IMG/VR virus record: IMGVR_UViG_3300023179_004209
Location: 1-64,000 of that record
Length of the DNA: 64,000 nucleotides
DNA from: a virus
Taxonomy: Duplodnaviria; Heunggongvirae; Uroviricota; Caudoviricetes
Direction: 5' to 3' (one strand)
The notes beneath the pieces are model-generated. The model saw only the letters and a list, made by a program, of their open reading frames with translations, was not told the DNA's origin and did not search any database. The translations under genes and the position numbers were made by a program. Shown piece after piece: positions 1,106 to 40,645 of the stretch; the stretch's first letter is position 1, and every line of letters begins with the position of its first letter.

Positions 1106-1109
1106 AAAA

Positions 1110-2487: not shown

Positions 2488-2527
2488 AACTATAAATATA
2501 AGAAAACAACAGTTAATATCTATTATT

Positions 2528-7243: not shown

Positions 7244-7245
7244 AT

Positions 7246-19457: not shown

Positions 19458-20444
19458 ATGCCATTTAAAAATAAAAAACATTTGTTACATTTAGTTCCTC
19501 ACGGTATTAACAGTGATGTATTTAGACCATTGAGTTCTACCGAGAAAATTATTAAAGACAAGAAGAAACAACTATTCGGCGATAAACAATACGATTTCGT
19601 TTTGTTTTATAATAGTCGCAACGTCCAACGTAAGAAGACTAGTAATGCAGTATTAGCTTTCAGAGCTTTCTGTGATAATCTTACACCAGAACAAGCAGCT
19701 AAATGTGCATTTGTATTACACACTGAAAAAGTACAAGATGCTGGAACAGACTTACCAGAAGTAATTAAGGCTTTGTGTCCAAATTATGATGTAATATTTG
19801 TTGAACATAAGATTAGTCCAGAAGAAATGTGTGCAATGTATAATATTGCAGATGCTACAATTCTTACCAGTTCTAACGAAGGATTTGGATTGAGTATTGC
19901 TGAATCAATTATGTGTGGTACTCCTGTAATTGTTAATGTTACTGGCGGATTGCAAGATCAAATTGGTCAAGTAGATGATGAAGGTAAACCAATCGAATTT
20001 GATTTAAATTTTGGTACTAATAGTGTTGGTAAATATAGAAATCATGGTGTATGGGCAAAGCCAATTTGGCCATGTGTCAAAACAATTCAGGGAAGTGTAC
20101 CAACACCATATATCTTTGATGATGTATGTACATGGGAAGAATCTGCAGAAGCAATCATGTATTGGTATTTAATGACACCAGAACAAAGAGAAAAGTGTGG
20201 ACTTGAAGGTCGTAGATGGGCAATGAATGAAGGTGGTATCAATGCTAAGAATATGTGTGATCAATTCATCAAAGCAATGGATTATACTATTAATAACTTT
20301 ATTCCTGAAGTAGGTTTTGATTTGTTTACAGTTAAAGATCATGTAGGAAATTATCAACCACATAATAGTATTGGTGTAGAAATTCCAAAGATTGATATTG
20401 ACAAATTAAAAAATGAAATCAATACTACAGTAGCTAAACTATGA
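19458..20444 (+). CDS. GT4-like glycosyltransferase, C-terminal half
   Basis: VPHGIN, SRNVQRK, SSNEGFGLSIAESIMCGTPVI. Confidence 0.8.
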   Translation: MPFKNKKHLLHLVPHGINSDVFRPLSSTEKIIKDKKKQLFGDKQYDFVLFYNSRNVQRKKTSNAVLAFRAFCDNLTPEQAAKCAFVLHTEKVQDAGTDLPEVIKALCPNYDVIFVEHKISPEEMCAMYNIADATILTSSNEGFGLSIAESIMCGTPVIVNVTGGLQDQIGQVDDEGKPIEFDLNFGTNSVGKYRNHGVWAKPIWPCVKTIQGSVPTPYIFDDVCTWEESAEAIMYWYLMTPEQREKCGLEGRRWAMNEGGINAKNMCDQFIKAMDYTINNFIPEVGFDLFTVKDHVGNYQPHNSIGVEIPKIDIDKLKNEINTTVAKL

Positions 20445-21148
20445 AGATTCAAGTTTTAAAAAACGAAACTTATCAGTCTACTGATAATCTACCAAAGAAA
20501 GGTACTGATAGAGCTACTGGTTTTGATGTAGTTGTTACAAGTGATCCAGAAATCGTTGGTGAACAGTATGAGAATGGTGCATACAAACGCATTGATTACA
20601 TTCAATACAAAACCAATCTTAAGTTAGCAGTTCAAAAAGAAAGACAATATAGTGGATTTGGTTACATTGATTTAGATTATGACATTCTAGCATTTCCTCG
20701 TAGTAGTGTTAGTAAGTATAATCTAGTATTAGCTAACTGTATTGGATTGATTGACGCAGATTATCGTGGTGAAGTATTACTTCGTTTCAAGTATATCTGG
20801 CAACCAGAAGATTATAGTATATATCCCCATCTATCAAATGACGGATCTCCATTATACAATTATATAGTAGGAAAACCAAATTCATCTAAACTCTATAATA
20901 AGGGTGATAAAGTTTGTCAACTCAAGGTAACAAAAGTTGAAAATGTAGAATTTGTTTTAGTAGACGAATTAGATTCTACAAATAGAGGTGAAGGTGGGTT
21001 TGGTAGCACTGATACTAAATCAACTGATAATACTAAACAAACAATAAAAAATATTGCGGATTTGTATGAAAAAATTAGTGGAAATATTACCACTCCATCA
21101 AAAAAATATGTAGATTCAATCAAAGAAAGAGAAAGACAATTAGGATAA
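20441..21148 (+). CDS. dut: Trimeric dUTPase
   Basis: ATGFD, PRSS, GLIDADYRGE, RGEGGFGST motifs. Confidence 0.93.
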   Translation: MKIQVLKNETYQSTDNLPKKGTDRATGFDVVVTSDPEIVGEQYENGAYKRIDYIQYKTNLKLAVQKERQYSGFGYIDLDYDILAFPRSSVSKYNLVLANCIGLIDADYRGEVLLRFKYIWQPEDYSIYPHLSNDGSPLYNYIVGKPNSSKLYNKGDKVCQLKVTKVENVEFVLVDELDSTNRGEGGFGSTDTKSTDNTKQTIKNIADLYEKISGNITTPSKKYVDSIKERERQLG

Positions 21149-23182: not shown

Positions 23183-24490
23183 ATGGATAAAATCTTAGAA
23201 GAAATCAGTTCTTATATCAAAGAAAAACAATCAAACAAAAAATGGGAAGCCGGTAAAGATTGGGTGCAATATGCCGGTCCTTTTTTTGATGATAAAGAAT
23301 ATATTGCGGCTATTAAATCATTATTAAACGAATGGTTAGTATTAGGACAAGACGCAATTACATTTGAAACAAATTTTCCAAAATTATTTAATAAAGAATA
23401 TGGAATTCTTACAAACAGTGGTAGCAGTTCCAATTTATTAATGATGTTAGCAATGACATCTAAACGATTATATAATTTACCAAAGGGAACTAAAGTAATA
23501 ACTCCTATTGCTGGATTTCCTACTACATTAAACCCAATTTTTCAAGTAGGATTTGAACCTGTATTTGTTGACATTGACTTGGATACATTAAACCTTAACT
23601 TAGATCAAGTTGAAGAACAAGCAAAGAAGGGAGCCAAAATAATTACATTTGCACATGTATTAGGCAATCCACCTAATATGAATCGACTAATGAATATTGT
23701 TAAACAATACAATCTAATTTTATTAGAAGATTGTTGTGACGCTCTTGGTTCAATGTATGATGGCAAACCTCTTGGAAGTTTTGGTGAATTGGCTAGTTGT
23801 AGTTTTTATCCTGCTCACCATATGACTATGGGAGAAGGAGGATTTGTTGTATGTAATACTAAAATTCAAGAAATAGTTACTCGCAGCTTTCGTGAATGGG
23901 GGCGTGGATGTTATTGTGTCGGTAAAAAAGCAAATCTACTAAAAAATGGTAGTTGTAGTACTAGATTTTCAAATTGGTTACCAGAACTACCAGATGAAAT
24001 ATTTGATCATAAATACGTTTACGATGAAATTGGATATAATTTAAAACCAATTGAACTACAAGCTTCTATCGGTTTAGAACAGTTAAAGAAATTGCCTGAA
24101 ATTCATCGTAGAAGAAAAGAAAATCATGCTAGATTAGTTAATATATTCAAGACATATGAAGAATATTTTCTATTACCAATTGCGACTGATTTATCCGATC
24201 CTAGTTGGTTTGCATTTGCAGTAACTATTAAAAACAATTCGTTGTTTAAACGTAAAGATATTGTGGATTATTTAGAATCAAATAAAATCCAAACCAGACC
24301 ATATTTCGCAGGTAATATTATGTTACAACCAGCATATACTGGATTAATAGATAAAACTGAAGTAATTTCTAAATATCCTAATGCAAGAAAAGTAACAACC
24401 GATACCTTTTTCTTAGGAACTAGTCCAGTAATTACTTCAGAACAATTAGATTACATACAAGAAAAAGTAGAGTCATTTTTTAAGAAATAA
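23183..24490 (+). CDS. rfbH: NDP-4-keto-6-deoxyhexose 3-dehydrase (E1/RfbH/DdhC), PMP and [2Fe-2S] dependent
   Basis: NSGSSSNL, HVLGNP, EDCCDALG, SFYPAHHMTMGEGG (His at the PLP-Lys position), WGRGCYC, DHKYVY..IGYNLK. Confidence 0.9.
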   Translation: MDKILEEISSYIKEKQSNKKWEAGKDWVQYAGPFFDDKEYIAAIKSLLNEWLVLGQDAITFETNFPKLFNKEYGILTNSGSSSNLLMMLAMTSKRLYNLPKGTKVITPIAGFPTTLNPIFQVGFEPVFVDIDLDTLNLNLDQVEEQAKKGAKIITFAHVLGNPPNMNRLMNIVKQYNLILLEDCCDALGSMYDGKPLGSFGELASCSFYPAHHMTMGEGGFVVCNTKIQEIVTRSFREWGRGCYCVGKKANLLKNGSCSTRFSNWLPELPDEIFDHKYVYDEIGYNLKPIELQASIGLEQLKKLPEIHRRRKENHARLVNIFKTYEEYFLLPIATDLSDPSWFAFAVTIKNNSLFKRKDIVDYLESNKIQTRPYFAGNIMLQPAYTGLIDKTEVISKYPNARKVTTDTFFLGTSPVITSEQLDYIQEKVESFFKK

Positions 24491-24496
24491 AATTAT

Positions 24497-25453
24497 ATGA
24501 AAATAGTATATATTACAGGATGTTTAGGGTTCATTGGATCTTATGTTGCCAGAGAATGTTTAAATAAAGGATGGTATGTCAGAGGGATTGATAAAATCAC
24601 TTATGCTGCACAACCAGAGATTCTTAAAGAATTCAATAAATATGAAAATTTTAGTTTTGATAAGTCTGATATAAATGATCTAGATAGATTGATTGACTGT
24701 GATTATTTTATCAATATTGCTGCAGAATCTCACGTAGACAATTCAATTAGAAAAAGTGATGATTTTGTTCATTCTAATATTAACGGTGTACATAATATAT
24801 TAGAATTGTTAAGAAATTATAACAAACAAGGACAAGTAAAACCATTATTAATACACTTTAGCACGGATGAAGTTTATGGTGATATTGAACACGGTGAACA
24901 TATAGAAACAGATATACTGAAACCAAGCAATCCATACGCTGCAACAAAAGCAGCAGCAGATCAACTAATATTGGCATGGGCAAGAACATACAATTTAAAA
25001 TATGTAATTGTCAGACCAACAAACAATTATGGTATCGGACAGTATGTGGAAAAGTTAATACCAAAAACATGTAAGTATATTGCTTTGGGAAGAAAAGTAC
25101 CACTTCATAATAATGGTACACCGATTAGAAATTGGTTACATGCAAAAGATACTGCAAGAGGTATTATAACTATTATAGAATCGGGTGTTGAAAATGAGAT
25201 TTATAATATTGCAGGAGGATTTGAACAATCAAATATAGTTACATTAGAAAAAATTGTGAAAGAATATTTTGGAGAATTGGTACCAGGATATAAAGAAAAA
25301 TACATTGATTTTTCATTGACACGAATTGGACAAGATGTAAGATATGCGTTAAATGACGACAAATTAAGAAATTTGGGATGGTCTCCTCAATGTCAATTTG
25401 ACAAAGAACTAAAGAAAATAGTACAATTTTACAAAAACAATTTTATATGGTAA
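24497..25453 (+). CDS. rfbB: dTDP-glucose 4,6-dehydratase-like SDR
   Basis: TGCLGFIG, AAESHVDNSI, STDEVYG, PYAATK, NNYG..Q..EKLIP. Confidence 0.88.
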   Translation: MKIVYITGCLGFIGSYVARECLNKGWYVRGIDKITYAAQPEILKEFNKYENFSFDKSDINDLDRLIDCDYFINIAAESHVDNSIRKSDDFVHSNINGVHNILELLRNYNKQGQVKPLLIHFSTDEVYGDIEHGEHIETDILKPSNPYAATKAAADQLILAWARTYNLKYVIVRPTNNYGIGQYVEKLIPKTCKYIALGRKVPLHNNGTPIRNWLHAKDTARGIITIIESGVENEIYNIAGGFEQSNIVTLEKIVKEYFGELVPGYKEKYIDFSLTRIGQDVRYALNDDKLRNLGWSPQCQFDKELKKIVQFYKNNFIW

Positions 25454-27243
25454 ATTATAACAAAAACGATTATTTAGCAGCGGACTTAATATCAGATTTT
25501 CTTGAAGAAAAAGAAATACAAACTGTATTTGGTATAATTGGTTCAGCAAATTCTTATATATTCGATTCAATTGCTCGTAAAGGATATACTAAAGTAATCT
25601 ATATGCATCATGAACAAGCGGTCGTAATGGCAGCCGGTTCGTATTATAGAACAACAGGAAAAGTTACCGCCGCAATTGTTACAGCAGGTGCAGGTGCATC
25701 TAACGCTATTACTGGTGTTTTGTGTAATTGGGCAGATTCTATTCCTTGTATTGTTATTTCCGGACAAGAATCAACAAAATATGTCAACGAACATTCACAT
25801 TTAAGAATGTTAGGTACTCAAGGATTTAATGTATCTAAAATGGTAAAAGATATAGTTAAATTCAGTACAATCATCAAAAACAAATCACAGTTATTGTCTT
25901 CATTGGAAGAATCATATCACATCACTACAAATGGAAGACCAGGACCTGTATGGATTGACATTCCCATGGATATGCAATCTGCAATTCTAAATAAAGAAGA
26001 TCTAATCAAATACGAATTACCTGTAAATCCCACAGAAAATTATAATGTATCAAATATCGTAGATTTAATTAAAAGTTCTGTTCGTCCTGTAATTCTTGCG
26101 GGACATGGTGTAAGACTGTCTAAGTCACAAATAGAATTAAAAAAATTAATTGAAAAGTTAAAAATCCCAGTCGTACTTTCTTGGTCTGGTATTGACAATC
26201 TTTCGTTTGATCATGAGTATAATTTTGGATGTCCTGGATTATATGGTCAACGTTGTGCAAATTTTGTAATACAAAACTGTGATCTATTAATTGTACTTGG
26301 AAGTAGATTAGCTCTTCCACAAACAGGATACAATATAAACAATTTTGCGCCAGAAGCAAAGATTGTAATGATCAATAATGATGAAGGAGAATTGAAAAAA
26401 CATTCTCGGTATGACATTACGATCAACAGTGATTGTAAAGATTTTATAAATAAATTGCTTTTAGAAGACATTACATGTTATAAAAATCAATGGTATCAAC
26501 AATGTTTAACGTATAAAAAGAATTTTCCATTAGTAGAAAAATGTCATTTAGAAGATAATCTAAAACATGACAATTCTTATGTTTTTATAAATAATATATC
26601 AAAGTTATTAAAAAACGACGATGTAATTGTTATAGGACAAGGAACCCCACTACCATCATGTCATCAGTCACTTGAAATAAAAAATGGTCAGACCGTATTT
26701 GCATCAAATGGGTTAGGTGAAATGGGAAATGGATTACCATCTGCAATTGGTGCTTCATTTGCTGCAAAAGATCGTAATGTAATATTATTTGACGGTGATG
26801 GTAGTATGATGATGAATCTTCAGGAATTGCAAACAATTGTAGGATATAAACTCCCAATAAAAATTATTATTTTTAATAATGAAGGATATTTGTTCATCAA
26901 ACATACACAAAAAATGTTGTTCAATGGAAGATATACTGGTGTCAATGCAGATACTGGTGTAAGTCTTCCAAGTTTTAAACGTATAGCTGATGCATTTGAA
27001 ATTCCTTATTTTAACACTAAAAATAATTCCGTAGAAGACTTTTTAAATCATCAAGGATATGCTATACTGGAATGTTATATGAATCCAGAACAAGATTTGG
27101 TGCCAAAAGTTAAAGGTATTTTAACCAAAGATGGAATTTTACCACCTCCAATTGAAGATATGTCTCCTTTGCTTTCAATAGAAACACTTGAAAGTAATAT
27201 GGTTATAAAAGTAAATGATATTTCTTATAAAATTAGAAAATGA
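25447..27243 (+). CDS. TPP-dependent acetolactate-synthase-family enzyme (YerE-like sugar C-C ligase by context)
   Basis: HHEQA, GRPGPVWIDIP.D, GEMG.GLPSAIG, GDGS.MMN.QEL...NN. Confidence 0.85.
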   Translation: MVNYNKNDYLAADLISDFLEEKEIQTVFGIIGSANSYIFDSIARKGYTKVIYMHHEQAVVMAAGSYYRTTGKVTAAIVTAGAGASNAITGVLCNWADSIPCIVISGQESTKYVNEHSHLRMLGTQGFNVSKMVKDIVKFSTIIKNKSQLLSSLEESYHITTNGRPGPVWIDIPMDMQSAILNKEDLIKYELPVNPTENYNVSNIVDLIKSSVRPVILAGHGVRLSKSQIELKKLIEKLKIPVVLSWSGIDNLSFDHEYNFGCPGLYGQRCANFVIQNCDLLIVLGSRLALPQTGYNINNFAPEAKIVMINNDEGELKKHSRYDITINSDCKDFINKLLLEDITCYKNQWYQQCLTYKKNFPLVEKCHLEDNLKHDNSYVFINNISKLLKNDDVIVIGQGTPLPSCHQSLEIKNGQTVFASNGLGEMGNGLPSAIGASFAAKDRNVILFDGDGSMMMNLQELQTIVGYKLPIKIIIFNNEGYLFIKHTQKMLFNGRYTGVNADTGVSLPSFKRIADAFEIPYFNTKNNSVEDFLNHQGYAILECYMNPEQDLVPKVKGILTKDGILPPPIEDMSPLLSIETLESNMVIKVNDISYKIRK

Positions 27244-27938
27244 ATCTAACTTTACAAACAATTCCCTCTACATTAATTTCTGAATTGTTCTCCAATTCTA
27301 AATTTGATGGTGTTGTATTAGATACTGAACACGGTAACTTTAATAATGAAACGTTATATTCTTGTATACAAGTAATAACTTTATACAAAAAACAATGTTT
27401 TGTTAGATTCACTGATTTAAATAAAACTTTGGTGAGAATGTGTTTAGATGCAGGAGCAACTGGTGTAATTTTTTCTACTGTAGAATCATATGACCAAGGA
27501 AAAGAAATTGTAGATTTTTGTAAATATCCATTATATAATGGAAAAAGAGGGTGTGGTCTTGTAAGAGAAAATCAGTGGGGAGATGATTGTATAGGAACAA
27601 AGATGCCAATTATAATTGGACAAATAGAAACAAAAAAATCCGTAGACAATTTAAAATCTATTTATAAATGTGGATTTGATATGTTTATTATAGGTCCATA
27701 TGACTTATCAAATAGTCTTGGATGTGTATGTAAATGGGAAAGTTCGTTATATAAAAAATACGTCAATAAAATCTATAATATAATCGACAAAGATAAATTA
27801 GGAATGTTTCTTCCTACATTTAAAAATATAGAACAATTTAATTCTGATAAAAAAGAAAACAAAATTGTACCTAAATTAATTATATGGGGAATGGATACGG
27901 ATTTTATTAAAAATGGAATAAACACTGTAAAATTATGA
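27240..27938 (+). CDS. HpcH/HpaI aldolase family protein
   Basis: LDTEHG, LDAGA.G, G.RG, QIET, IGPYDLS.SLG. Confidence 0.85.
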   Translation: MNLTLQTIPSTLISELFSNSKFDGVVLDTEHGNFNNETLYSCIQVITLYKKQCFVRFTDLNKTLVRMCLDAGATGVIFSTVESYDQGKEIVDFCKYPLYNGKRGCGLVRENQWGDDCIGTKMPIIIGQIETKKSVDNLKSIYKCGFDMFIIGPYDLSNSLGCVCKWESSLYKKYVNKIYNIIDKDKLGMFLPTFKNIEQFNSDKKENKIVPKLIIWGMDTDFIKNGINTVKL

Positions 27939-28687
27939 TTGTTAATTTAATAAAAAATTTAGAGTTATTATCAACTAATTATGGAATCATCGGATTAAAA
28001 CAATCATTTGAAGATGAAGGTGTTAATTTAGATGATTTACTCGTAGTTAGAAGAATTACAGATATTTGTAATCTTAAATGTTTTGTTAAAATTGGTGGAT
28101 GTGAAGCTAAAACCGATATAAACAATTGCATCAAATATGGTATAAATGATATAATTGCACCCATGGTGGAATCTTCATTTGCATTGTCTAAATTTACTGA
28201 TATCACATCATTACATTCAGACAGAATGCACTCTTATATAGTTATAGAAACGAAAACTGCATATGAAAATTTAGATGATATATTAAAATATGGCAATAAT
28301 AAGTTAAACGGAATTATTATTGGTAGATCGGATTTTTCAAAATCATATTTCATGAATAAATCAGAAGTAAATTGTGATTTTATATTTGATAAAGTAAAAG
28401 ACATTCTTATAAAATCTAAAAAATATAATTATTCAACTACATTAGGAGGTAATATATCTACAAAAAGTGTAGAATTTATTAAAAAAATGTATTTTGACAA
28501 TTTGTTGGATAAAATTGAAACTAGAAATGTAGTTATTAAACTGAACGACTATAATATTCATTATTTAGAAAAAACAATTCAATCTGCACTTGAATATGAA
28601 ATCGAATTGTTAAAATATAAAAGAAACAATTTTATATTGACTGTTAATGAATTAGATGACAGAATAAAGTCTTTAACTAATAGATAA
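27935..28687 (+). CDS. HpcH/citrate-lyase-like aldolase-fold protein
   Basis: KQSFEDEG, VKIGGCEA, APMVES, VIET, IGRSD. Confidence 0.7.
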   Translation: MIVNLIKNLELLSTNYGIIGLKQSFEDEGVNLDDLLVVRRITDICNLKCFVKIGGCEAKTDINNCIKYGINDIIAPMVESSFALSKFTDITSLHSDRMHSYIVIETKTAYENLDDILKYGNNKLNGIIIGRSDFSKSYFMNKSEVNCDFIFDKVKDILIKSKKYNYSTTLGGNISTKSVEFIKKMYFDNLLDKIETRNVVIKLNDYNIHYLEKTIQSALEYEIELLKYKRNNFILTVNELDDRIKSLTNR

Positions 28688-28691
28688 TAAC

Positions 28692-29849
28692 ATGAAAACA
28701 CGATTTGAAATCTTACAAGACATTGTTCATAAAGAACAATGTTTTAAAATGATATGTGGGGCAGGAAACGAAGATAAAAGTCAAGTTAAAAAATTGGCTT
28801 TTATTTATACTTTAGCAGGTACAAAAATCCTAGATGTATCTGCTAATGTTGATATTGTAAAATCTGCAATGGAAGGAATTGATTTGGCATACGAATATGC
28901 TCACAAGTTAGATGTTACGATTGAACATAGACCATATATCATGGTTAGTGTTGGTATGCCAGGAGATCCTCATGTAAGAAAATCATTTATCGATCCAAAT
29001 AAATGTATTTCATGTACATTATGTATTCCCATTTGCCCAACCGATGCAATTCCAAAAGACTTTACTAAAAATCTAGAGTTTTTTAGAAATTTAAATGGAT
29101 CGTTCGATGTAGAAGATCAATCAAAAGAAATTGTTATTAAAGATCTTTGTATTGGATGTGGTAAATGTAGTAGTATTTGTCCAAAGTCAGATATTATATC
29201 ATATCGGCATAATGCAAGAGAAATAAACAAATTGTTACCAAAATGCATGGAGGCGGGAGCAGAATTATTTGAACTTCATGCTGCTGTTGGCGAAGATGAT
29301 ATTACATTACAAGAGTGGAAACTTATTAATGAAATTAATCCAACCAATTATAATTCTATGTGTCTTGATAGACTAAATCTTGGCAATTTGCGATTAGAAC
29401 ATAGAATTCAAGAAGCAAGGAAAGTATCTGGAAATCGTTTAATGATTCAAGCAGATGGTTATCCAATGAGTGGAGGAGAAGACGATTATAACACTACTTT
29501 ACAAGCAATTGCATGTGCAGATGTTGTAAATAAAAAATTCAACATGAGAATTGATAAAAAACGTGGTGTAGATAAACTCGGAAAACCAAAGATCTCATCA
29601 AAGAAAATTTATAAAGATATAAATGATGTTGACAACATTCCACTTCTAATTTCAGGAGGAACAAATTCATTTAGTAAAGAATTAGCTGAAAAAGCAGGTG
29701 TAAGAATCAATGGTGTATCAATTGGAACATTTGCCAGAGATTTAATTGAAGAATTCATTACATCAAACGATTTCTATAACAATGATGAATTAATCAAACT
29801 TGCATTTTTAAACGCAAAAGAGTTAATTAACAAAAGTAATAAACAATAA
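28692..29849 (+). CDS. ldpA: LdpA-like Fe-S protein (TIM-barrel-like with inserted 2x[4Fe-4S] ferredoxin)
   Basis: FKMICGAG...YTLAG..DVSA, MVSV...DPHVRK, CISCTLCIPICP and CIGCGKCSSICP, ELH, QADGYPMSG, SGGTN, GVSIG. Confidence 0.8.
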   Translation: MKTRFEILQDIVHKEQCFKMICGAGNEDKSQVKKLAFIYTLAGTKILDVSANVDIVKSAMEGIDLAYEYAHKLDVTIEHRPYIMVSVGMPGDPHVRKSFIDPNKCISCTLCIPICPTDAIPKDFTKNLEFFRNLNGSFDVEDQSKEIVIKDLCIGCGKCSSICPKSDIISYRHNAREINKLLPKCMEAGAELFELHAAVGEDDITLQEWKLINEINPTNYNSMCLDRLNLGNLRLEHRIQEARKVSGNRLMIQADGYPMSGGEDDYNTTLQAIACADVVNKKFNMRIDKKRGVDKLGKPKISSKKIYKDINDVDNIPLLISGGTNSFSKELAEKAGVRINGVSIGTFARDLIEEFITSNDFYNNDELIKLAFLNAKELINKSNKQ

Positions 29850-29854
29850 AATAT

Positions 29855-30235
29855 ATGAAACAATTAGTTATAGCAGTCGATTTTGATGGTACTCTATGTG
29901 AGTATGCATTTCCATCTATTGGAAAACAGACAGAACAACAAAAAAATCTATTGGACCTCTTAATCAAACTAAGAGAAAAAGGACATTATTTGATTCTTTG
30001 GACTAACAGAGGAGATAATGAAAAATTGAAATGTTTGTCTGAAGCAATTGAATGGTGTAAACAACAAGGATTGGAATTTGATCAAGTCAACAAAAATAAT
30101 CCAGAAAGAGAAGCCAAAAAACTATCTGGGTCTAGTCCAAAAATCCTAGCAGATTACTATATAGATGATAAAGCACTCGAATTTGGAAACGAATTAGTAA
30201 GAATCAAAACTTTAGAATTTTTGTCTAAACTATGA
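29855..30235 (+). CDS. Small HAD-superfamily hydrolase
   Basis: AVDFDGT, WT.R, K..ADYYIDDK. Confidence 0.8.
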   Translation: MKQLVIAVDFDGTLCEYAFPSIGKQTEQQKNLLDLLIKLREKGHYLILWTNRGDNEKLKCLSEAIEWCKQQGLEFDQVNKNNPEREAKKLSGSSPKILADYYIDDKALEFGNELVRIKTLEFLSKL

Positions 30236-31140
30236 ACATATTGGTTACAGGAGGAAATGGATTCTTAGGATCTAATATTGTAAAAAAACTAGTAAAAAAA
30301 AATCACAACGTATTAGTTGTATCAAAAAACAATAACAATATTAGCTCGGTTGTAGATAAATGTAAATTTATATCATCTTACATAAATGAATTGGAAATTC
30401 ATATCAATGACATCGAATCTTTTTTGCCTGAGGTAATCTTATTGTTTGGATGGAATGGTGCAAATAGTTACAAAGACATTCATCATATAGATCAATATCA
30501 CAAAAATATACCAGATCATATAAAATTTATAGAGTTAATTAATAAGTTTAAATACAAACCAAAAATCATAGGAGTCGGAAGTTTTGCTGAATATGGAAAC
30601 TATTCAATTCCAATTACAGAGGAGTTTTTTGAACGTCCTAATAGTTTATATGGATTGTCAAAATTTACATTTAAACAATATAGTGAAATGTTTTGTAAAC
30701 AAAACAATATAAACTGGTCGTGGATTCGTCCTTGTTATGTTTATGGCCCAAATGATGTTAATACGAGATTAATTCCATCATTAATCAATAAGTTTTTAAG
30801 AGATGAAAATGTATATCTAGATGAATGTAATACGATAATAGATTATTTGTATATAGATGACTTTGTAAACTTTGTATATCATTTGATTATATCAAATGAT
30901 AATGGTGTATATAACATCTGTTCAAATAATCAATATAAGTTAAAAAACATCATCAATCTCATACACCAGTTAACCAATAGTAAATCCGAAATAATATTTG
31001 ATAAAAAGTTAAATAGAACAACAAGTAATGGATTTATATGCGGCGACAATACAAAAATAAAGAATTTGTCCGGACTAAATAACTTTACAGATATTAATGA
31101 CGGATTAATTAAAACAATAAAATTGTTAAATGAATTATAA
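30232..31140 (+). CDS. NAD-dependent sugar epimerase/ketoreductase (extended SDR)
   Basis: TGGNGFLG, GS.AEYG, YGLSK, VYGP. Confidence 0.88.
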   Translation: MNILVTGGNGFLGSNIVKKLVKKNHNVLVVSKNNNNISSVVDKCKFISSYINELEIHINDIESFLPEVILLFGWNGANSYKDIHHIDQYHKNIPDHIKFIELINKFKYKPKIIGVGSFAEYGNYSIPITEEFFERPNSLYGLSKFTFKQYSEMFCKQNNINWSWIRPCYVYGPNDVNTRLIPSLINKFLRDENVYLDECNTIIDYLYIDDFVNFVYHLIISNDNGVYNICSNNQYKLKNIINLIHQLTNSKSEIIFDKKLNRTTSNGFICGDNTKIKNLSGLNNFTDINDGLIKTIKLLNEL

Positions 31141-35359: not shown

Positions 35360-36898
35360 ATGAATGTATTATTTATCAATCCGGGAAACAAAGAAGCAAT
35401 TTATCAAGGATTATCAACAACTTATTCTGCAATTGAACCCCCAACATGGGCATTACTATTAGCAGAATCTTGTCGTTCTATAGGGAAAACAGTTTCTATC
35501 TTGGATATTAACGCAGAAAATCTATCAGTAGAACAATCGTTTGAACGTATTAAGAATATCAATCCAAAACTCATATGTTTTGTAGTATATGGGCAAAATG
35601 TAAATGCTGGAACAGTAAGTATGAGTGGCGCAGTTGCACTTTCCAATTATATTAAACAACAAAATTGTAATATTCCTATTGCTTTCGTTGGTTCTTATGT
35701 CCAAGCATTACCAAAAAAGGCATTGTTTGAAGAAAAATCAATTGATATTGTATTCACAAATGAAGGTGTTTACGCATTAAGAAATCTAATATCACAAGAT
35801 TATATTGATGTAAATAAGCTAGACCACATCAAAGGAATTGCATGGAGAAAAAATGGATTCCCAACATTAAATGCACCTGAAAGTGTTGTTCCACAAGATA
35901 GATTGGATATTGATTTACCAGGCTATGCATGGGATTTGTTACCATATAAAGAAAAACCATTGGATTTATACCGTTCTCCAATGTGGCATGCAGAATACGA
36001 TCATAATAAACGTACACCTTATGCTGCAATTCAGACATCATTGGGATGTCGATTTGGATGTGATTTTTGTATGATTAATATTGTTAACAGAAATGATAAT
36101 GATGAAATCGGTGTTGCATCGAATTATAGTTCTATGAGATATTGGTCTCCCGAATTCATTATTAATGAATTTGACAAGTTAGTTAAAATGGGTGTAGAAA
36201 CCATTCGTATTGTAGATGAAATGTTTCTATTGAATAAAAAATATTATGTTCCTCTATGTACTATGTTGAAAGAAAGAGGATATGGTAAAAATTTAAGAAT
36301 GTGGGCATATTCTCGTATTGATACCGTATCAAATCCAGAACTACTAAAGTTGGTAAGAGAAGCTGGTATTAAATGGCTTTGTTTAGGAATCGAAAGTGGA
36401 GATAGAAATGTAAGATTGGAAGTGTCCAAAGGTAAATTTCAAGACGTAGATATTCAAAAAGTAATTCAATACATTCACGAATCGGATATAGAAATCATGG
36501 CAAATTATATATTTGGATTGCCTGGTGACACTTTTGATAGTATGCAAAAAACATTGAATCTTTCTAAAGAATTATGCACATTTGGTTGGAATGCATATGC
36601 TGCAATGGCATTACCAGGAAGTAAGTTGTATAAAGATGCAATTGATAAAGGTCGTCCAATACCAAAAACATATGAAGGATTCTCATTTCATTCATATGAA
36701 ACATTACCTTTGCCAACAGATGCATTGACCTCTGCACAAATTATAAAATTTAGAGATAATGCGTTTGAAGAATATCATTCATATCCACCATTTTTAGAAA
36801 AAGTTGAACGAAAATATGGTGCGACAGCAGTAAATAATATTAAAGAAATGTTAAAAATTAAGTTAAAAAGAAAGATTGTAGAAGAAGAAATAAAATAA
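35360..36898 (+). CDS. Cobalamin-binding radical SAM enzyme (class B methyltransferase-like)
   Basis: N-terminal B12-binding domain (EPP.W..LLA), SLGCRFGCDFC, DEMF, GIESG, IFGLPGD. Confidence 0.88.
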   Translation: MNVLFINPGNKEAIYQGLSTTYSAIEPPTWALLLAESCRSIGKTVSILDINAENLSVEQSFERIKNINPKLICFVVYGQNVNAGTVSMSGAVALSNYIKQQNCNIPIAFVGSYVQALPKKALFEEKSIDIVFTNEGVYALRNLISQDYIDVNKLDHIKGIAWRKNGFPTLNAPESVVPQDRLDIDLPGYAWDLLPYKEKPLDLYRSPMWHAEYDHNKRTPYAAIQTSLGCRFGCDFCMINIVNRNDNDEIGVASNYSSMRYWSPEFIINEFDKLVKMGVETIRIVDEMFLLNKKYYVPLCTMLKERGYGKNLRMWAYSRIDTVSNPELLKLVREAGIKWLCLGIESGDRNVRLEVSKGKFQDVDIQKVIQYIHESDIEIMANYIFGLPGDTFDSMQKTLNLSKELCTFGWNAYAAMALPGSKLYKDAIDKGRPIPKTYEGFSFHSYETLPLPTDALTSAQIIKFRDNAFEEYHSYPPFLEKVERKYGATAVNNIKEMLKIKLKRKIVEEEIK

Positions 36899-36933
36899 AC
36901 ATACAAAAGTAAAACTACATAAGTATATTGACT

Positions 36934-37542
36934 ATGATAAAAAACTATACTCCATCAGAATTAATATCATTTGAAGAAGACATTGCGGAACAGTTTAATA
37001 ATTCAAAAATAAAAGCGCCTATTCATTTGTATAACGGTAACGAATCACAAATGATTCAAATATTTGATGATATTAAAGAAGAAGATTGGGTTTTTTGTAC
37101 ATGGAGATCACATTATCAATGTTTGTTAAAGGGAGTACCACCAGAAACCGTTAAATCTGATATTCTCAAGGGCAAATCAATTACTTTGTGTTATCCAGAA
37201 TATAAAGTATATTCATCTGCAATTGTAACGGGAAATATTCCTATTGCAACTGGAGTAGCATTAGACATTAAAAGAAAAGGTTCCAATGAAAAGGTTTGGT
37301 GTTTCGTTGGTGACATGACATCTGAAACGGGTACCTTTTTTGAAAACTGGAAATATTCAGTGAATCATGATTTACCTATTACTTATATTATAGAAAATAA
37401 CGGTAAATCTGTTTGTACAGATACATTGAAAGTGTGGAATTGTGAAGAATTATTCTTTGCAAAAGAAACTCGTAAAATTAAATATTACAAATACGAAACA
37501 AAGTATCCTCACGCTGGCGCAGGCAAAAGAATTCAATTTTAA
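36934..37542 (+). CDS. TPP-dependent dehydrogenase E1 alpha-like subunit (short)
   Basis: PIHL..GNE, WRSH, SAIV.G, GD....G...E..N...ENN TPP motif. Confidence 0.8.
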   Translation: MIKNYTPSELISFEEDIAEQFNNSKIKAPIHLYNGNESQMIQIFDDIKEEDWVFCTWRSHYQCLLKGVPPETVKSDILKGKSITLCYPEYKVYSSAIVTGNIPIATGVALDIKRKGSNEKVWCFVGDMTSETGTFFENWKYSVNHDLPITYIIENNGKSVCTDTLKVWNCEELFFAKETRKIKYYKYETKYPHAGAGKRIQF

Positions 37543-37546
37543 TATT

Positions 37547-38083
37547 ATGAAATATTTCGACGAACTTAAAAAATCAATGGATTGGTTGGCAACTAAAGAA
37601 AACACTTTGTTTTTAGGTCAGGCAGTAGAATATGCCGGTACTGGTATGACAAATACATTAAAAGATGTAGATAGATCTAAGTTATTAGAAATGCCTGTCA
37701 ATGAAGATATGCAAATGGGTATGTCAATTGGAATGGCATTAAATGGTACAGTTCCTATTTCTATATATCCTAGATGGAATTTTCTATTACTAGCCGCAAA
37801 TCAATTGGTAAATCATTTGGATAAAATGAAAATTATGTCTGATGGAGGATATAAACCAAAAGTAATTATTAGAACATCAATTGGTTCTCAACGTCCATTA
37901 CATCCACAACATCAACATATCAGTGATTTTTCAGGAGGATTTAAAGCAATGTGTGATACAGTTGATATTATTCGATTGGATGAACCACATCAAATTTTTG
38001 AATCATTCCAATATGCTTATGAACGAACTGATAATAGATCCACTATCTTAGTTGAATGGGGTGATTATTACGGAGAAAAATAA
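37547..38083 (+). CDS. E1 beta/transketolase pyrimidine-binding subunit (lacks C-terminal domain)
   Basis: Start corrected to ATG 37547; LGQ, EMPV.E..QMG..IG.A, NQLVN, HPQHQH. Confidence 0.8.
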   Translation: MKYFDELKKSMDWLATKENTLFLGQAVEYAGTGMTNTLKDVDRSKLLEMPVNEDMQMGMSIGMALNGTVPISIYPRWNFLLLAANQLVNHLDKMKIMSDGGYKPKVIIRTSIGSQRPLHPQHQHISDFSGGFKAMCDTVDIIRLDEPHQIFESFQYAYERTDNRSTILVEWGDYYGEK

Positions 38084-38084
38084 C

Positions 38085-39047
38085 ATGACTATCGTTAAAT
38101 CGCCATTTAGAATATCATTATTTGGAGGATCTACCGATTATAAAGGATTTTATGAAAAATACGGGTCATTTATAATTGGTACAACTATTAATAAATATTG
38201 TTATCTTTCTATGAGGTATCGACCATCAATACTCTCAAAACAATATTTATGCACATATTCAAAGTATGAATTAGTGGATACTATAGAACAAATACAAAAT
38301 CCACTAATTAGAGCGACATTAAAATACTATAATGTAGATAAACCGATTGAATTTTTTTCATATTCAGACATTCCAGCAAGAACCGGACTAGGTGGTTCAT
38401 CAACATATTGCGTAGGAATGTCATATTTAATCCACAAACTCCAAAACAAACAAATAAATAAAAAAGAGATAATCAAATCTGCGATTAAAATAGAAAGAGA
38501 AATTCTCAATGAAAGTGGTGGCATTCAAGATCAAATTTGGCCTTTTGCAAAAGGTTTAAATTCCATAGAAATTGATAAAAACGGAGAATTTAGTATAAAA
38601 CCATTACCATTAACAGAAGAATTTTTAGTAGAATTACAGAAATCATTTACACTAATATATACTGACGAACAACGAAATACAGATCAAATTGCTAAATCTC
38701 ATGAAAATGATATAAACAATAAATTGAATATATTAGAATTAGCAAAAGAATCATACTCTGCATTCTTAAAAGAAGATATAAAATCAATAGGATGTTTGTT
38801 GTATCAAAGTTGGATCAATAAAGAAAAAATATCCCCATTAATTTCTAATAATAAAATAAAGCAAATAATCGATGATGTAATGTCAATGGGTGCATATGGT
38901 GCAAAATTATTAGGAAGCGGAGGATGTGGATTTGTGTTAGTTGTATCAGATCCTATTATAAAAACCAAAATACTTGAAAAATATAATGGTAATGTATTAG
39001 AATTCGATTTTGAAAAATCAGGAACATCTGAAATTTTTTCTAGTTAA
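38085..39047 (+). CDS. hddA: GHMP sugar kinase, D-glycero-D-manno-heptose 7-phosphate kinase-like
   Basis: PFRISLFGGSTD, IPARTGLGGSS, GGIQDQ, GAKLLGSGGCGF; start corrected to 38085. Confidence 0.8.
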   Translation: MTIVKSPFRISLFGGSTDYKGFYEKYGSFIIGTTINKYCYLSMRYRPSILSKQYLCTYSKYELVDTIEQIQNPLIRATLKYYNVDKPIEFFSYSDIPARTGLGGSSTYCVGMSYLIHKLQNKQINKKEIIKSAIKIEREILNESGGIQDQIWPFAKGLNSIEIDKNGEFSIKPLPLTEEFLVELQKSFTLIYTDEQRNTDQIAKSHENDINNKLNILELAKESYSAFLKEDIKSIGCLLYQSWINKEKISPLISNNKIKQIIDDVMSMGAYGAKLLGSGGCGFVLVVSDPIIKTKILEKYNGNVLEFDFEKSGTSEIFSS

Positions 39048-39050
39048 TAT

Positions 39051-39473
39051 ATGAAAATAGGAATAGTATCTGGGTATTTTAATCCCGTCCACTATGGACA
39101 TATCGAATACATCAATTCTGCAAAAGAAAACTGTGATAAATTAATTGCAGTCATCAATAGTGATTACCAACGTGAATTAAAAGGAACAAAAGAATTCATG
39201 GACGAAAATCACAGATCTAAAATTATATTTAATTTGAAATCAGTTGATGATGTATTTATTTCTGTTGACAAAGACAAAACTCAATGTCAGACTCTTAGAT
39301 ATTTAAAAAATAAATATAAAGAAGATCACTTGATATTTTTTAACAGTGGCGATAGAAAAGGTTCAAATTTAGTTACTGCAGAATCAGATGTATGTAAAGA
39401 AATTGGAATAGAAGAATCAATTCTTGATCTACCAAAAATATACTCGTCAAGTGAACTACTAAAAAAGTTATGA
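39051..39473 (+). CDS. Cytidylyltransferase-family nucleotidyltransferase
   Basis: SGYFNPVHYGH (HxGH), GDR, SSS. Confidence 0.85.
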   Translation: MKIGIVSGYFNPVHYGHIEYINSAKENCDKLIAVINSDYQRELKGTKEFMDENHRSKIIFNLKSVDDVFISVDKDKTQCQTLRYLKNKYKEDHLIFFNSGDRKGSNLVTAESDVCKEIGIEESILDLPKIYSSSELLKKL

Positions 39474-40645
39474 ATAATTTTTACTTACCATTAATGGAAG
39501 ACAATATTGACAGAGAAGATGTCAATACACTAATAAACTTTCTAAATCAAACACCAATACCAAAACTAACCAATGGACCAAAAGTAGTTGAATTTGAAAA
39601 TGCATGGGGTCAATGGTTGGGTACTAAATATAATTTGATGGTTAATAGTGGAGCTAGTGCAAATGAATTGACAATACTTGCATTAAATGAACTGTACGAA
39701 GACGGCGAAGTGATTTTACCGCCCCTAACATGGATATCAGATGTTTCGTCAGTAATATTTAGCGAATTTACACCTATATTTTGTGATATCAATCTAAAAA
39801 ATCTATCTTTTGATTTGGAAAAACTTAAGAAATTAATTACACCAAAAACAAGAGCAATATTTTTGACTCATGTTTTGGGAATCAATGGTCTCACAGACGA
39901 ACTATTAAACATTTGTAAAGAGAATAACATTCATCTAATTGAAGATGTATGCGAGTCTCACGGTACTACATTTAAAGGTAAAAAAGTAGGATCATATGGA
40001 TTTGTAAGCAATTTTAGTTTTTACTTCGCACATCATATGTCCACTATTGAAGGTGGTATGATTTGTACCAACGATGAAAGATTCTATCAAATTTGTAGAG
40101 CATTAAGATCACATGGTATGATTAGAGAAATGACGGATGAATCCATGAGAAATGAAATTATCTATAAAAATCCTGATCTCAACAAAGATTTCATTTTCTT
40201 ACGTCCATCTCATAACTTTAGAAGTACCGAACTTAATGCAGTGTTAGGATTGTCTCAGTTGAAAAAATTAGACAAAAATAACAAAAATAGAATAGACAAC
40301 TATAACTATTTTATGAGTAAATTAGATCCTTCCAAATATATTACTGACATAGAATTAGATGGACAATGTAATTATGCATTTACAGTAATCTTAAAAGATC
40401 CTTCTTTTGTTACTCGTCTAAATGTAGAATTGAGATTAAAAGAAGCCTGTATTGAATTTAGAAGAGGAATGTCCGGTGGAGGAAATCAACTTCGACAACC
40501 ATACATCAAAAAACATTTCAATATCAACTATGACGATTTTAAAGTAGTAGACCACGTTCATAACTTTAGTTGGTATATTGGCAATTATCCAGGTCTACAA
40601 AGAGAAAAAATTGATACTTTATTGAATGTATTAAATAATGTATGA
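39470..40645 (+). CDS. DegT/DnrJ-family PLP enzyme, ColD-like 3-dehydratase
   Basis: NSGASAN, EDVCESHG, FSFYFAHHMSTIEGG (His in place of the Schiff-base Lys). Confidence 0.82.
   Translation: MNNFYLPLMEDNIDREDVNTLINFLNQTPIPKLTNGPKVVEFENAWGQWLGTKYNLMVNSGASANELTILALNELYEDGEVILPPLTWISDVSSVIFSEFTPIFCDINLKNLSFDLEKLKKLITPKTRAIFLTHVLGINGLTDELLNICKENNIHLIEDVCESHGTTFKGKKVGSYGFVSNFSFYFAHHMSTIEGGMICTNDERFYQICRALRSHGMIREMTDESMRNEIIYKNPDLNKDFIFLRPSHNFRSTELNAVLGLSQLKKLDKNNKNRIDNYNYFMSKLDPSKYITDIELDGQCNYAFTVILKDPSFVTRLNVELRLKEACIEFRRGMSGGGNQLRQPYIKKHFNINYDDFKVVDHVHNFSWYIGNYPGLQREKIDTLLNVLNNV

What the first reader, a model, noticed from the sequence alone, without database searches (positions are those of the whole stretch)
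23183..31140. LdpA-like 'clock' protein embedded in a branched-dideoxysugar module, candidate replacement for the E3 reductase
Seen: rfbH - 4,6-dehydratase - TPP enzyme - two aldolase-fold genes - LdpA-like (two CxxCxxCxxxCP motifs) - HAD - SDR in one run. Known: E1/RfbH needs an electron donor (E3/AscD, or ferredoxin for SpnQ); YerE adds a two-carbon branch to CDP-4-keto-3,6-dideoxyglucose and an SDR (YerF) finishes yersiniose; LdpA is described as a cyanobacterial circadian input protein with no assigned enzymatic role. No E3 or kai gene is in the window. Inference: the LdpA family here is a sugar-pathway redox enzyme, either feeding electrons to RfbH or acting with the aldolases to build a longer-chain branch. 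This would give the family a biochemical function.
Basis: partly seen in the sequence, partly recalled or inferred. Interest (0 to 1): 0.78.

Follow-up and report, generated by a model that had tools for sequence, protein, structure and literature searches.

The report
Phage branched-sugar pathway with LdpA-like enzyme
A 296-kb phage carries a gene set for a branched dideoxy sugar in which an iron-sulfur relative of the cyanobacterial clock protein LdpA most likely helps build the keto-acid side chain with a phosphatase and aldolases, rather than feeding electrons to the deoxygenase RfbH.

Summary
The eight genes are there as described. The window is part of a complete 295,831-bp T4-like jumbo phage.

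RfbH is a true E1 dehydrase. The TPP enzyme is YerE-like (best solved relative JanthE, E 2e-150). The LdpA-like protein is a confident TIM barrel with a di-[4Fe-4S] insert.

The proposed E3 role is not supported. In 27 phage loci the LdpA-like gene always sits beside a small HAD phosphatase. The two are fused in one natural protein. A divergent aldolase-fold gene accompanies them in 26 of the 27 loci. This module pairs either with YerE-like TPP, E1 RfbH and an SDR, or with a KdsB-type cytidylyltransferase and a Maf-like transferase. The two outfits almost never co-occur. Of 36 well-flanked phage RfbH loci, only one has an LdpA-like gene.

In prokaryotes the same clade sits in a conserved aldolase-LdpA-HAD-aldolase-cytidylyltransferase cassette, which this scan has already noted on other DNA.

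Best reading: the module makes a tailored alpha-keto acid that the YerE-like enzyme grafts onto a 3,6-dideoxy-4-ketohexose, as published for erwiniose and caryophyllose. The chemistry of the LdpA-like enzyme itself is unknown. It is not a clock-type LdpA orthologue.

The parts
23183..24490 (+). E1-type RfbH: PMP/[2Fe-2S] NDP-4-keto-6-deoxyhexose 3-dehydrase
   Evidence: NF011936 at 462 bits, above the cut-off of 423. Full-length match to Yersinia E1 (3BCX), E 9e-102, with SFYPAHH (His in place of the PLP Lys), DCC and a CYC...C motif.
24497..25453 (+). NDP-hexose 4,6-dehydratase, dTDP-glucose type
   Evidence: TIGR01181 at 310 bits, E 9.7e-93, below the equivalog cut-off of 365. The CDP-glucose dehydratase model scores only 70 bits.
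25447..27243 (+). YerE-like ThDP-dependent carboligase
   Evidence: Three TPP domains. Best solved relative is 8RPH at 505 bits, E 2e-150, against 252 bits for acetolactate synthase. 8RPH is JanthE, a characterised YerE-like enzyme (PMC12188165).
27240..27938 (+). HpcH_A: class II pyruvate aldolase, counterpart of the HpcH in the prokaryotic cassette
   Evidence: PF03328 at 48.5 bits. YfaU (2VWS) E 4.6e-17. hhalign against the cassette HpcH gives P 100, E 1e-61.
27935..28687 (+). HpcH_B: divergent aldolase-fold protein, upstream partner of the LdpA-like gene
   Evidence: PF03328 at 25.1 bits. hhalign against HpcH gives P 97. AF2 model pLDDT 94; best Foldseek hits are HpaI, SwHKA and GarL at TM about 0.6. 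Present in 26 of 27 viral loci. The E105 and D133 metal-site positions are conserved.
28692..29849 (+). LdpA-family protein: TIM barrel with an inserted di-[4Fe-4S] ferredoxin domain; redox enzyme of unknown reaction
   Evidence: NF045992 at 142.5 bits, below the cut-off of 450. AF2 pLDDT 94.3, pTM 0.91. The barrel resembles phosphate-binding barrels, Z 15-18 with no clear winner. TM 0.67-0.89 to LdpA clusters. Residues invariant across the family are listed. It lies in the cassette clade of the tree.
29855..30235 (+). Small cap-less HAD phosphatase, obligate partner of the LdpA-like gene
   Evidence: NF046079 (BT0820 family) at 90.6 bits, below the cut-off of 165. DFDGT motif. 55% identical to the C-terminal domain of the natural LdpA-HAD fusion P0124, which is seen on two contigs. 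Present in 27 of 27 viral loci.
30232..31140 (+). Extended SDR, candidate YerF-like side-chain ketoreductase
   Evidence: PF01370 at 109.6 bits. In most TPP-outfit loci an SDR directly follows the HAD gene, but in no cytidylyltransferase-outfit locus. The function is inferred.

Best explanation
The eight genes encode a phage pathway for an acyl-branched 3,6-dideoxyhexose of the yersiniose, erwiniose and caryophyllose kind.

The 4,6-dehydratase and E1-type RfbH would turn a host NDP-glucose into an NDP-3,6-dideoxy-4-ketohexose. RfbH's electrons probably come from host reductants.

Separately, a portable module builds a tailored alpha-keto acid. The module is HpcH_B, the LdpA-like Fe-S TIM-barrel enzyme and a small HAD phosphatase, here joined by the pyruvate aldolase HpcH_A. 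An aldolase would join pyruvate to a phosphorylated carbonyl compound. The LdpA-like enzyme would carry out a ferredoxin-type redox step on the phosphorylated intermediate. The HAD enzyme would then remove the phosphate.

The YerE-like ThDP enzyme would decarboxylate this keto acid and add it to C4 of the ketosugar, and the SDR would reduce the side-chain ketone. In sister phages and in many prokaryotes the same module instead hands its product to a KdsB-type cytidylyltransferase and a transferase.

Shown here: gene identities, fold, conserved partners, the two alternative outfits, and the lack of dependence of RfbH on LdpA. Inferred: the order of steps, the phosphorylated substrate, the use of the product by the ThDP enzyme, and the reaction of the LdpA-like enzyme.
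For: 1. Identities. RfbH is an E1. The TPP enzyme matches JanthE, a YerE-like enzyme. HpcH_A is a YfaU-type aldolase.

2. Published precedent. ErwE, MMAR_2332 and MyGE use aldolase-made hydroxylated alpha-keto acids as donors onto CDP-4-keto-3,6-dideoxyglucose, and a reductase follows. The aldolase genes lie next to the ThDP genes, and MMAR_2331 belongs to the aldolase/citrate-lyase family (PMC9306805).

3. The LdpA-HAD pair is constant. It is found in 27 of 27 viral loci, as a natural fusion on two contigs, and beside a different HAD type in the prokaryotic cassettes and in L035 and L014. The barrel has the SGGTN and GxxxG(S/T)xAR motifs at strands 7 and 8, which is typical of phosphate-binding barrels.

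4. The two outfits exclude each other. About 18 viral loci have TPP, most of them also with E1 RfbH, and most have an SDR directly after the HAD gene. Nine have CTP_transf_3, most with an MptE-like gene. Only L029 has both. No CTP_transf_3 exists anywhere in this phage genome.

5. The outfit switched several times on the LdpA tree: 7 changes for TPP and 5 for the cytidylyltransferase outfit, with 4-5 forced by well-supported branches.

6. The downstream enzyme subtype tracks HpcH_A. With HpcH_A, the TPP enzyme is 57-100% identical to the window's. Without it, identity is 31-38%. This holds even between close sister loci, such as the window against L006 and L020 against L009. The cytidylyltransferase subtype tracks HpcH_A in the same way.

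7. Independent prokaryotic copies of the TPP outfit exist. L107 (Microgenomates) has 4,6-DH, LdpA, HAD, HMGL-like aldolase, TPP, SDR and an E1-type RfbH. L043 (Nitrospiraceae) has the LdpA-HAD core with a TPP enzyme and no cytidylyltransferase. L035 is a phage locus at 28% identity with the same set of functions.
Against: - No biochemical data exist for any member of the module.
- 36 of 38 phage RfbH+TPP loci work without an LdpA-like gene, so the module is an add-on and the ThDP enzyme could simply use pyruvate.
- L006 has the LdpA-HAD pair and a TPP enzyme but no aldolase within reach, so the aldolase step is not universal.
- About 50 of 77 sampled prokaryotic relatives, mainly Melainabacteria, keep all the conserved residues but lie in unrelated housekeeping contexts. 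The reaction may therefore be more general than sugar tailoring.
- The fold search gives no single closest enzyme.
- Related loci share ancestry, so locus counts overstate independence.
Confidence: 0.5

Rival explanations
1. E3 substitute. The di-[4Fe-4S] domain of the LdpA-like protein passes electrons to the [2Fe-2S] centre of RfbH, replacing AscD.
For: - RfbH has all the E1 features and so needs an external reductant.
- The 296-kb genome has no FNR-like domain and no Fer2 gene, and the LdpA-like gene holds its only Fer4 matches.
- E1-type RfbH is found within 10 kb in 16 of 27 viral LdpA loci.
Against: - Only 2 of the 80 closest phage E1 loci carry an LdpA-like gene, and only 1 of the 36 with at least 8 kb on both sides. 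None has another Fer4 protein or an AscD-like gene, so phage RfbH generally relies on host reductants.
- Nine phage loci and about 20 prokaryotic cassettes keep LdpA, HAD and an aldolase without RfbH.
- A bare electron carrier would not need a 300-residue barrel with about 30 invariant non-cysteine residues and a fused phosphatase.
- The protein has no FAD/NAD(P)H domain.
Confidence: 0.08
2. Two unrelated pathways lie side by side. RfbH, the 4,6-dehydratase, the TPP enzyme and the SDR make ordinary yersiniose from pyruvate. HpcH_A, HpcH_B, LdpA and HAD make a separate Kdo-like sugar acid that is activated by a host cytidylyltransferase or used unactivated.
For: - RfbH+TPP modules are common in phages without the LdpA module: 36 of 38.
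- The LdpA module occurs with its own cytidylyltransferase and transferase elsewhere.
- Glycan islands pack many modules together.
Against: - The cytidylyltransferase is missing in 17 of 18 TPP-outfit loci and from the whole genome.
- The genes are interleaved rather than adjacent blocks: HpcH_B-TPP-LdpA in L019 and L021, LdpA-HAD-HpcH-TPP in L035, and LdpA-HAD-HMGL-TPP-SDR-RfbH in L107.
- The TPP subtype co-switches with HpcH_A between close sister loci.
Confidence: 0.22
3. The LdpA-like protein is a general low-potential electron donor for other Fe-S or radical enzymes of the island, such as the B12 radical SAM enzyme at 35360-36898 and the SPASM enzymes at 5337-9332.
For: Radical SAM enzymes need a reductant. 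B12 radical SAM genes lie near several prokaryotic cassettes, including L048, L050, L053 and L093.
Against: Most viral loci with the trio show no radical SAM gene near it. The conserved barrel and the fused phosphatase argue for a substrate-turning enzyme.
Confidence: 0.04

Closest known systems
Acyl-branched sugar pathways: yersiniose (YerE/YerF), erwiniose (ErwE/F/I/J), caryophyllose (MMAR_2331/2332), gastriose (MyGE/MygI/MygF). Steitz et al. 2022, PMC9306805
   Same: The window has the same components in one operon-like run: an NDP-hexose 4,6-dehydratase, an E1 3-dehydrase, a YerE-like ThDP carboligase, an adjacent pyruvate aldolase of the HpcH/citrate-lyase family, and an NAD(P)H reductase.
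   Different: The window adds an LdpA-like Fe-S barrel enzyme, a HAD phosphatase and a second, divergent aldolase-fold protein, none of which appears in the published schemes. It has no E3. Its dehydratase is of the dTDP-glucose rather than the CDP-glucose type. It is encoded by a phage.
Clock input protein LdpA of Synechococcus elongatus (NF045992)
   Same: The architecture and fold are the same: a barrel with two CxxCxxCxxxCP clusters inserted after strand 3. About 35 positions are invariant in both, including K19, C22, D48, S86, D92, H94, K97, E194, H196, Q253, D255 and R349.
   Different: The window protein scores only 142 bits against a cut-off of 450. On the tree it is separated from clock LdpA by a long branch (2.59). 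The clock clade alone has N26F/Y, C224A, R227C, Q271A and S222L. The phage protein has two extra insertions. The genomic context is sugar genes rather than a cyanobacterial chromosome.
Uncharacterised 'aldolase-based CMP-sugar-acid cassette' of anaerobic bacteria and archaea: HMGL-like, LdpA-like, HAD, HpcH, KdsB-like, transferase. Known only from genome context, including earlier notes of this scan.
   Same: The phage LdpA-like proteins nest inside this clade (SH-aLRT 96). HpcH_A matches the cassette HpcH (hhalign E 1e-61). A HAD gene follows the LdpA-like gene.
   Different: The HMGL-like aldolase is replaced by HpcH_B. The 250-aa HAD is replaced by a 126-aa BT0820-type HAD. The cytidylyltransferase and transferase are replaced by a YerE-like ThDP enzyme, an E1, a 4,6-dehydratase and an SDR.
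E3 / AscD (CDP-6-deoxy-delta-3,4-glucoseen reductase)
   Same: It would be an iron-sulfur protein encoded next to E1.
   Different: From my own knowledge of the family, AscD is a plant-type [2Fe-2S] ferredoxin fused to an FNR-like FAD/NAD(P)H module. The window protein is a TIM barrel with two [4Fe-4S] motifs and no nucleotide-binding domain.

Membership tests
LdpA family (Pfam PF25160 + PF12617) | Two CxxCxxCxxxCP [4Fe-4S] motifs inserted in a conserved barrel, with full-length similarity to LdpA profiles | tested here: met
   NF045992 aligns over positions 10-327 of 360, E 1.8e-41. PF25160 scores 37 bits, above its cut-off. PF12617 scores 21.6 bits, just under its cut-off of 22.2. TM 0.67-0.89 to LdpA clusters. 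The motifs are visible.
Clock protein LdpA (NCBIfam equivalog NF045992) | Score above the curated cut-off of 450 bits | tested here: not met
   142.5 bits. Sixteen sampled cyanobacterial LdpA proteins score 527-630 bits.
Clock protein LdpA (NCBIfam equivalog NF045992) | Membership of the cyanobacterial clock clade and its clade-specific residues | tested here: not met
   The clock clade is one side of a branch with support 100 and length 2.59, and the phage proteins lie on the other side. The window has N26, C224, R227 and Q271 where the clock clade has F/Y, A, C and A.
E3 / AscD reductase | Plant-type [2Fe-2S] domain plus FNR-like FAD/NAD(P)H-binding domains | tested here: not met
   No PF00175 or PF00111 in the protein or in the whole genome.
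E3 / AscD reductase | Regular co-occurrence with E1 (functional dependence) | tested here: not met
   An LdpA-like gene is found in 2 of 80 phage E1 loci, and in 1 of 36 with at least 8 kb on both sides. The trio occurs without E1 in 9 phage loci and about 20 prokaryotic loci.
Acyl-branched sugar pathway (YerE scheme) | YerE-like ThDP carboligase | tested here: met
   JanthE (8RPH) at 505 bits, E 2e-150, about twice the best acetolactate synthase score.
Acyl-branched sugar pathway (YerE scheme) | E1 3-dehydrase with His in place of the PLP Lys and a [2Fe-2S] cysteine motif, plus an NDP-hexose 4,6-dehydratase | tested here: met
   The dehydratase is met at family level only (310 bits, below the cut-off of 365).
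Acyl-branched sugar pathway (YerE scheme) | Adjacent pyruvate aldolase that supplies the keto-acid donor, and a side-chain reductase | tested here: met
   HpcH_A (YfaU E 4.6e-17) and an SDR directly downstream. These are gene-level matches only; no activity was tested.
Acyl-branched sugar pathway (YerE scheme) | The product is a C4-acyl-branched 3,6-dideoxyhexose | not testable with these tools
   Requires glycan chemistry or enzyme assays.
Aldolase-based CMP-sugar-acid cassette (uncharacterised) | LdpA-like gene followed by a HAD gene, with an HpcH aldolase | tested here: met
Aldolase-based CMP-sugar-acid cassette (uncharacterised) | KdsB-type cytidylyltransferase (PF02348) and a dedicated transferase | tested here: not met
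   No PF02348 match in the whole phage genome. None in 17 of 18 TPP-outfit viral loci.

The most novel reading that the evidence does not exclude
The whole LdpA family, including the cyanobacterial clock protein and its plant homologues, consists of Fe-S-dependent enzymes that act on a phosphorylated keto-acid or sugar intermediate. Clock LdpA would then influence the clock through a metabolite or through its own turnover, rather than acting as a passive redox sensor. In phages this enzyme is a portable tailoring step that yields an as-yet-undescribed side chain or acidic sugar on phage-directed glycans.
Probability: 0.3. Interest if true: 0.8.

Novelty: new variant of a known kind. Interest (0 to 1): 0.6.

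Why it matters
LdpA has been described for twenty years only as a redox-sensing clock input with no known enzymatic role and as exclusive to cyanobacteria (PMC13421787, PMC5520375). Here its homologues turn out to be widespread. The two peptide patterns used found relatives in 520 places among the species genomes scanned, and relatives also occur in phages. The family keeps about 30 invariant non-cysteine residues in a phosphate-binding-type barrel. In the phage and cassette clade the protein is locked to a phosphatase and aldolases inside sugar pathways.

This gives a concrete, testable handle on the family's chemistry. It also extends the published aldolase-plus-ThDP scheme for long-branched sugars with a new tailoring pair. 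Finally, it shows that jumbo phages carry such pathways, and E1-type RfbH genes are themselves very common in viral contigs.

Tried and rejected
- Complex prediction of the LdpA-like protein with HpcH_B (collected): score 0.00, no verdict. It is not used either way.
- Fold searches for the LdpA barrel. Foldseek placed class II FBP aldolases and thiamin-phosphate synthase first. VIA-align gave a flat list at Z 15-18 (KDPG aldolase, HPS, RPE, MetH Hcy domain, TIM, OYE). No specific enzyme family could be named.
- Sequence search of the PDB with the family profile found only ferredoxin domains.
- ESM Atlas feature search gave no usable hit.
- The phage GenBank collection gave no protein match to the LdpA-like gene.
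- Scans of genome contigs with the broad alignments A1 and A2 failed for lack of a conserved stretch. The narrower A4 worked.
- Literature searches for HpcH with cytidylyltransferase and ferredoxin, and for ulosonic acid with pyruvate aldolase, found nothing.
- HpcH_B as a homologue of the cassette's HMGL-like aldolase was rejected (hhalign P 0.4).
- The small phage HAD as a homologue of the cassette's 250-aa HAD at family level was rejected (P 1.9).
- My first extraction of clock LdpA sequences was truncated, because these genes have no in-frame ATG upstream of the conserved N-terminus. It was redone with alternative start codons.

Full report
**What the window is.** The window is the first 64 kb of a single 295,831-bp virus record that CheckV rates as complete. 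It encodes a family B DNA polymerase, a clamp loader, class I ribonucleotide reductase, a DnaB-like helicase, a 5'-3' exonuclease and UvdE. The closest polymerase in the phage collection is that of Microcystis phage Mel-JY01, at 45% identity. This is therefore a distant T4-like jumbo phage with about 30% GC. Positions 17.7-44.3 kb on the + strand form one long glycan-gene island, and more sugar genes lie at 1-12 kb on the - strand.

**The observation.** All eight genes exist as described, with overlapping or nearly touching ends.
- RfbH passes the NCBIfam equivalog cut-off. It aligns end to end with Yersinia E1 (3BCX, E 9e-102). It keeps SFYPAHH, DCC and a CYC...C motif, so it is an Fe-S-dependent E1 that needs an external reductant.
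- The dehydratase is of the dTDP-glucose type.
- The best solved relative of the TPP enzyme is 8RPH, at 505 bits against 252 bits for acetolactate synthase. 8RPH is JanthE, a characterised YerE-like carboligase.
- HpcH_A is a clear class II pyruvate aldolase.
- HpcH_B is very divergent but has the same fold and keeps the metal-site Glu and Asp.
- The LdpA-like protein matches the clock LdpA profile over its full length but at only 142 bits against a cut-off of 450. Both CxxCxxCxxxCP motifs are present.
- The 126-aa protein is a BT0820-type HAD with a DFDGT motif.
- The whole genome has no FNR-like domain, no plant-type ferredoxin and no KdsB-type cytidylyltransferase. The LdpA-like gene holds its only Fer4 matches.

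**The protein itself.** An AlphaFold2 model built from 41 diverse relatives is confident (pLDDT 94.3, pTM 0.91). It shows a (beta/alpha)8 barrel with the di-cluster ferredoxin domain inserted after strand 3, plus a subgroup-specific hairpin. Structure searches return phosphate-binding barrels in a flat list at Z 15-18, so no known enzyme can be named. The ESM Atlas search confirms the same fold as LdpA clusters from cyanobacteria, plants and phages.

I aligned 121 sequences, among them phage proteins, prokaryotic cassette proteins, Melainabacteria-type proteins and 16 true clock LdpA proteins. About 35 positions are invariant in all of them: K19, C22, D48, S86, D92, H94, K97, the eight cluster cysteines, E194, H196, W209, Q253, D255, G256, M259-S260-G261, G322-G323-T324-N325, G341, G345 and R349. 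The clock clade alone has changed N26, S222, C224, R227 and Q271. This pattern is that of an enzyme active site, not of a mere electron carrier.

**Neighbours in phages.** Twenty-seven viral loci carry a relative at 28-98% identity.
- The small HAD follows the LdpA-like gene in all loci with a relative at 47% identity or more.
- In L035, at 28% identity, a 256-aa classical HAD takes its place.
- One natural protein, P0124, seen on two contigs from different sources, fuses the two. Its C-terminal domain is 55% identical to the window's HAD.
- HpcH_B precedes the pair in 26 of 27 loci. L006 lacks any aldolase nearby.

Around this core there are two outfits.
- About 18 loci, including the window, have a YerE-like TPP enzyme. 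Sixteen of them also have an E1-type RfbH. Most have an SDR directly after the HAD gene.
- Nine loci instead have a CTP_transf_3 cytidylyltransferase, and most of them also have an MptE/Maf-like protein.
- Only L029 has both.

On the LdpA tree the outfit changes several times. The subtype of the TPP enzyme (57-100% against 31-38% identity to the window's) and the subtype of the cytidylyltransferase both follow the presence of HpcH_A. This holds even between close sister loci.

**Neighbours in prokaryotes.** Two peptide patterns found 520 places that encode a relative among the species genomes scanned. In the 80 loci kept:
- About 24 lie in a conserved cassette: HMGL-like aldolase, LdpA-like protein, 250-aa HAD, HpcH aldolase, CTP_transf_3 and a DUF6716-like transferase. 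Hosts include Desulfobacterota-type MAGs, Omnitrophota, anammox Planctomycetes, methanogens, Elusimicrobia and CPR bacteria.
- Two of these, L043 and L107, carry a TPP enzyme in place of the cytidylyltransferase. L107 also has a 4,6-dehydratase, an SDR and an E1-type RfbH, so it is an independent copy of the window's outfit.
- About 50, mainly Melainabacteria, lie in unrelated housekeeping contexts.

The phage proteins nest inside the cassette clade (SH-aLRT 96). Clock LdpA sits across a long branch. Earlier notes of this scan describe the same cassette on other DNA, including a phage version with a cytidylyltransferase. I reached the cassette independently.

**Test of the E3 idea.** E1-type RfbH is very common in viral contigs: at least 583 stretches. 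Of the 80 closest loci, at 64-91% identity to the window's RfbH, only two carry an LdpA-like gene, and both are contigs already known from the LdpA search. Among the 36 loci with at least 8 kb on both sides, one has it. Nineteen of those 36 have a YerE-like TPP enzyme, and none has another Fer4 protein or an AscD-like gene. Phage RfbH therefore normally works with host reductants, and the LdpA-like gene is not its regular partner. A side role as electron donor in this particular phage cannot be excluded, because the LdpA-like protein is the only ferredoxin-type protein the phage encodes.

**Best explanation.** Steitz et al. showed that ErwE, MMAR_2332 and MyGE take hydroxylated alpha-keto acids made by neighbouring pyruvate aldolases. 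These enzymes add the acids to CDP-4-keto-3,6-dideoxyglucose, and a reductase follows. The products are erwiniose, caryophyllose and gastriose. The window has every element of that scheme, plus the LdpA-HAD pair and a second aldolase-fold protein.

I therefore read the module as the supplier of a tailored keto-acid donor. The LdpA-like enzyme would perform a redox step on a phosphorylated intermediate before the HAD enzyme removes the phosphate. The same module feeds a CMP-activation route in other genomes, which fits because both a ThDP enzyme and a KdsB-type enzyme act on alpha-keto acids. The order of steps, the substrate and the reaction of the LdpA-like enzyme are all inferences. The complex prediction gave no verdict.

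**Verdict.** The E3 interpretation is not supported, and the 'works with the aldolases' alternative is supported by context. This is a new variant of a known pathway type and contains an enzyme family with no known reaction. I found no paper that describes the module. The scan has already noted the related cassette on other DNA several times.

Noticed in passing
About half of the well-flanked loci (19 of 36) also carry a YerE-like TPP enzyme. Yersiniose-type branched-sugar modules therefore seem widespread in phages.
   Followed up: partly
P0124; loci L221:660-2066 and L222:331-1737: A natural fusion of an LdpA-like protein with the small BT0820-type HAD phosphatase (468 aa), found on two contigs from different sources.
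   Followed up: yes
L205-L220 (cyanobacterial ldpA loci): In 15 of 16 sampled true clock ldpA genes, the first in-frame ATG after the upstream stop lies at the MVSLND motif, well inside the conserved barrel. In the sixteenth (L210) it lies a few residues upstream, still inside the barrel. The conserved FKLICGAS N-terminus must therefore be translated from a GTG or TTG start.
   Followed up: partly
window 20441-21148 (+): A 235-aa protein with a C-terminal dUTPase-like segment sits between glycosyltransferase genes. The same gene in the same place is found in L004/L008 at 59% identity.
   Followed up: no
window 35360-41157 (+): A second sugar module: a B12-binding radical SAM enzyme, a split E1-type TPP pair (E1_dh plus Transket_pyr), a GHMP kinase, a small cytidylyltransferase, a DegT-family enzyme and RmlC. 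It is conserved as a block in L004/L008 and partly, inverted, in L020. It was also flagged by other first-stage notes.
   Followed up: no
window 1-12000 (-): A further glycan block on the other strand: an 872-aa GT1-containing protein, two radical SAM enzymes with the SPASM domain at the N-terminus, a NodZ-like fucosyltransferase and methyltransferases. In total about 40 kb of this phage's first 64 kb is sugar-related.
   Followed up: no
L058-L116 (Melainabacteria/Gastranaerophilales genomes): The LdpA-family gene keeps all the non-clock invariant residues but sits between a beta-lactamase/DD-peptidase-like gene and an unknown 197-aa gene, followed by a GlmU-like gene. No HAD or aldolase is nearby. 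The family's reaction may serve a housekeeping role there.
   Followed up: partly
ESM Atlas clusters: LdpA-fold clusters include one that is 94% eukaryotic (Streptophyta, about 413 aa), so plants carry homologues of this family.
   Followed up: no
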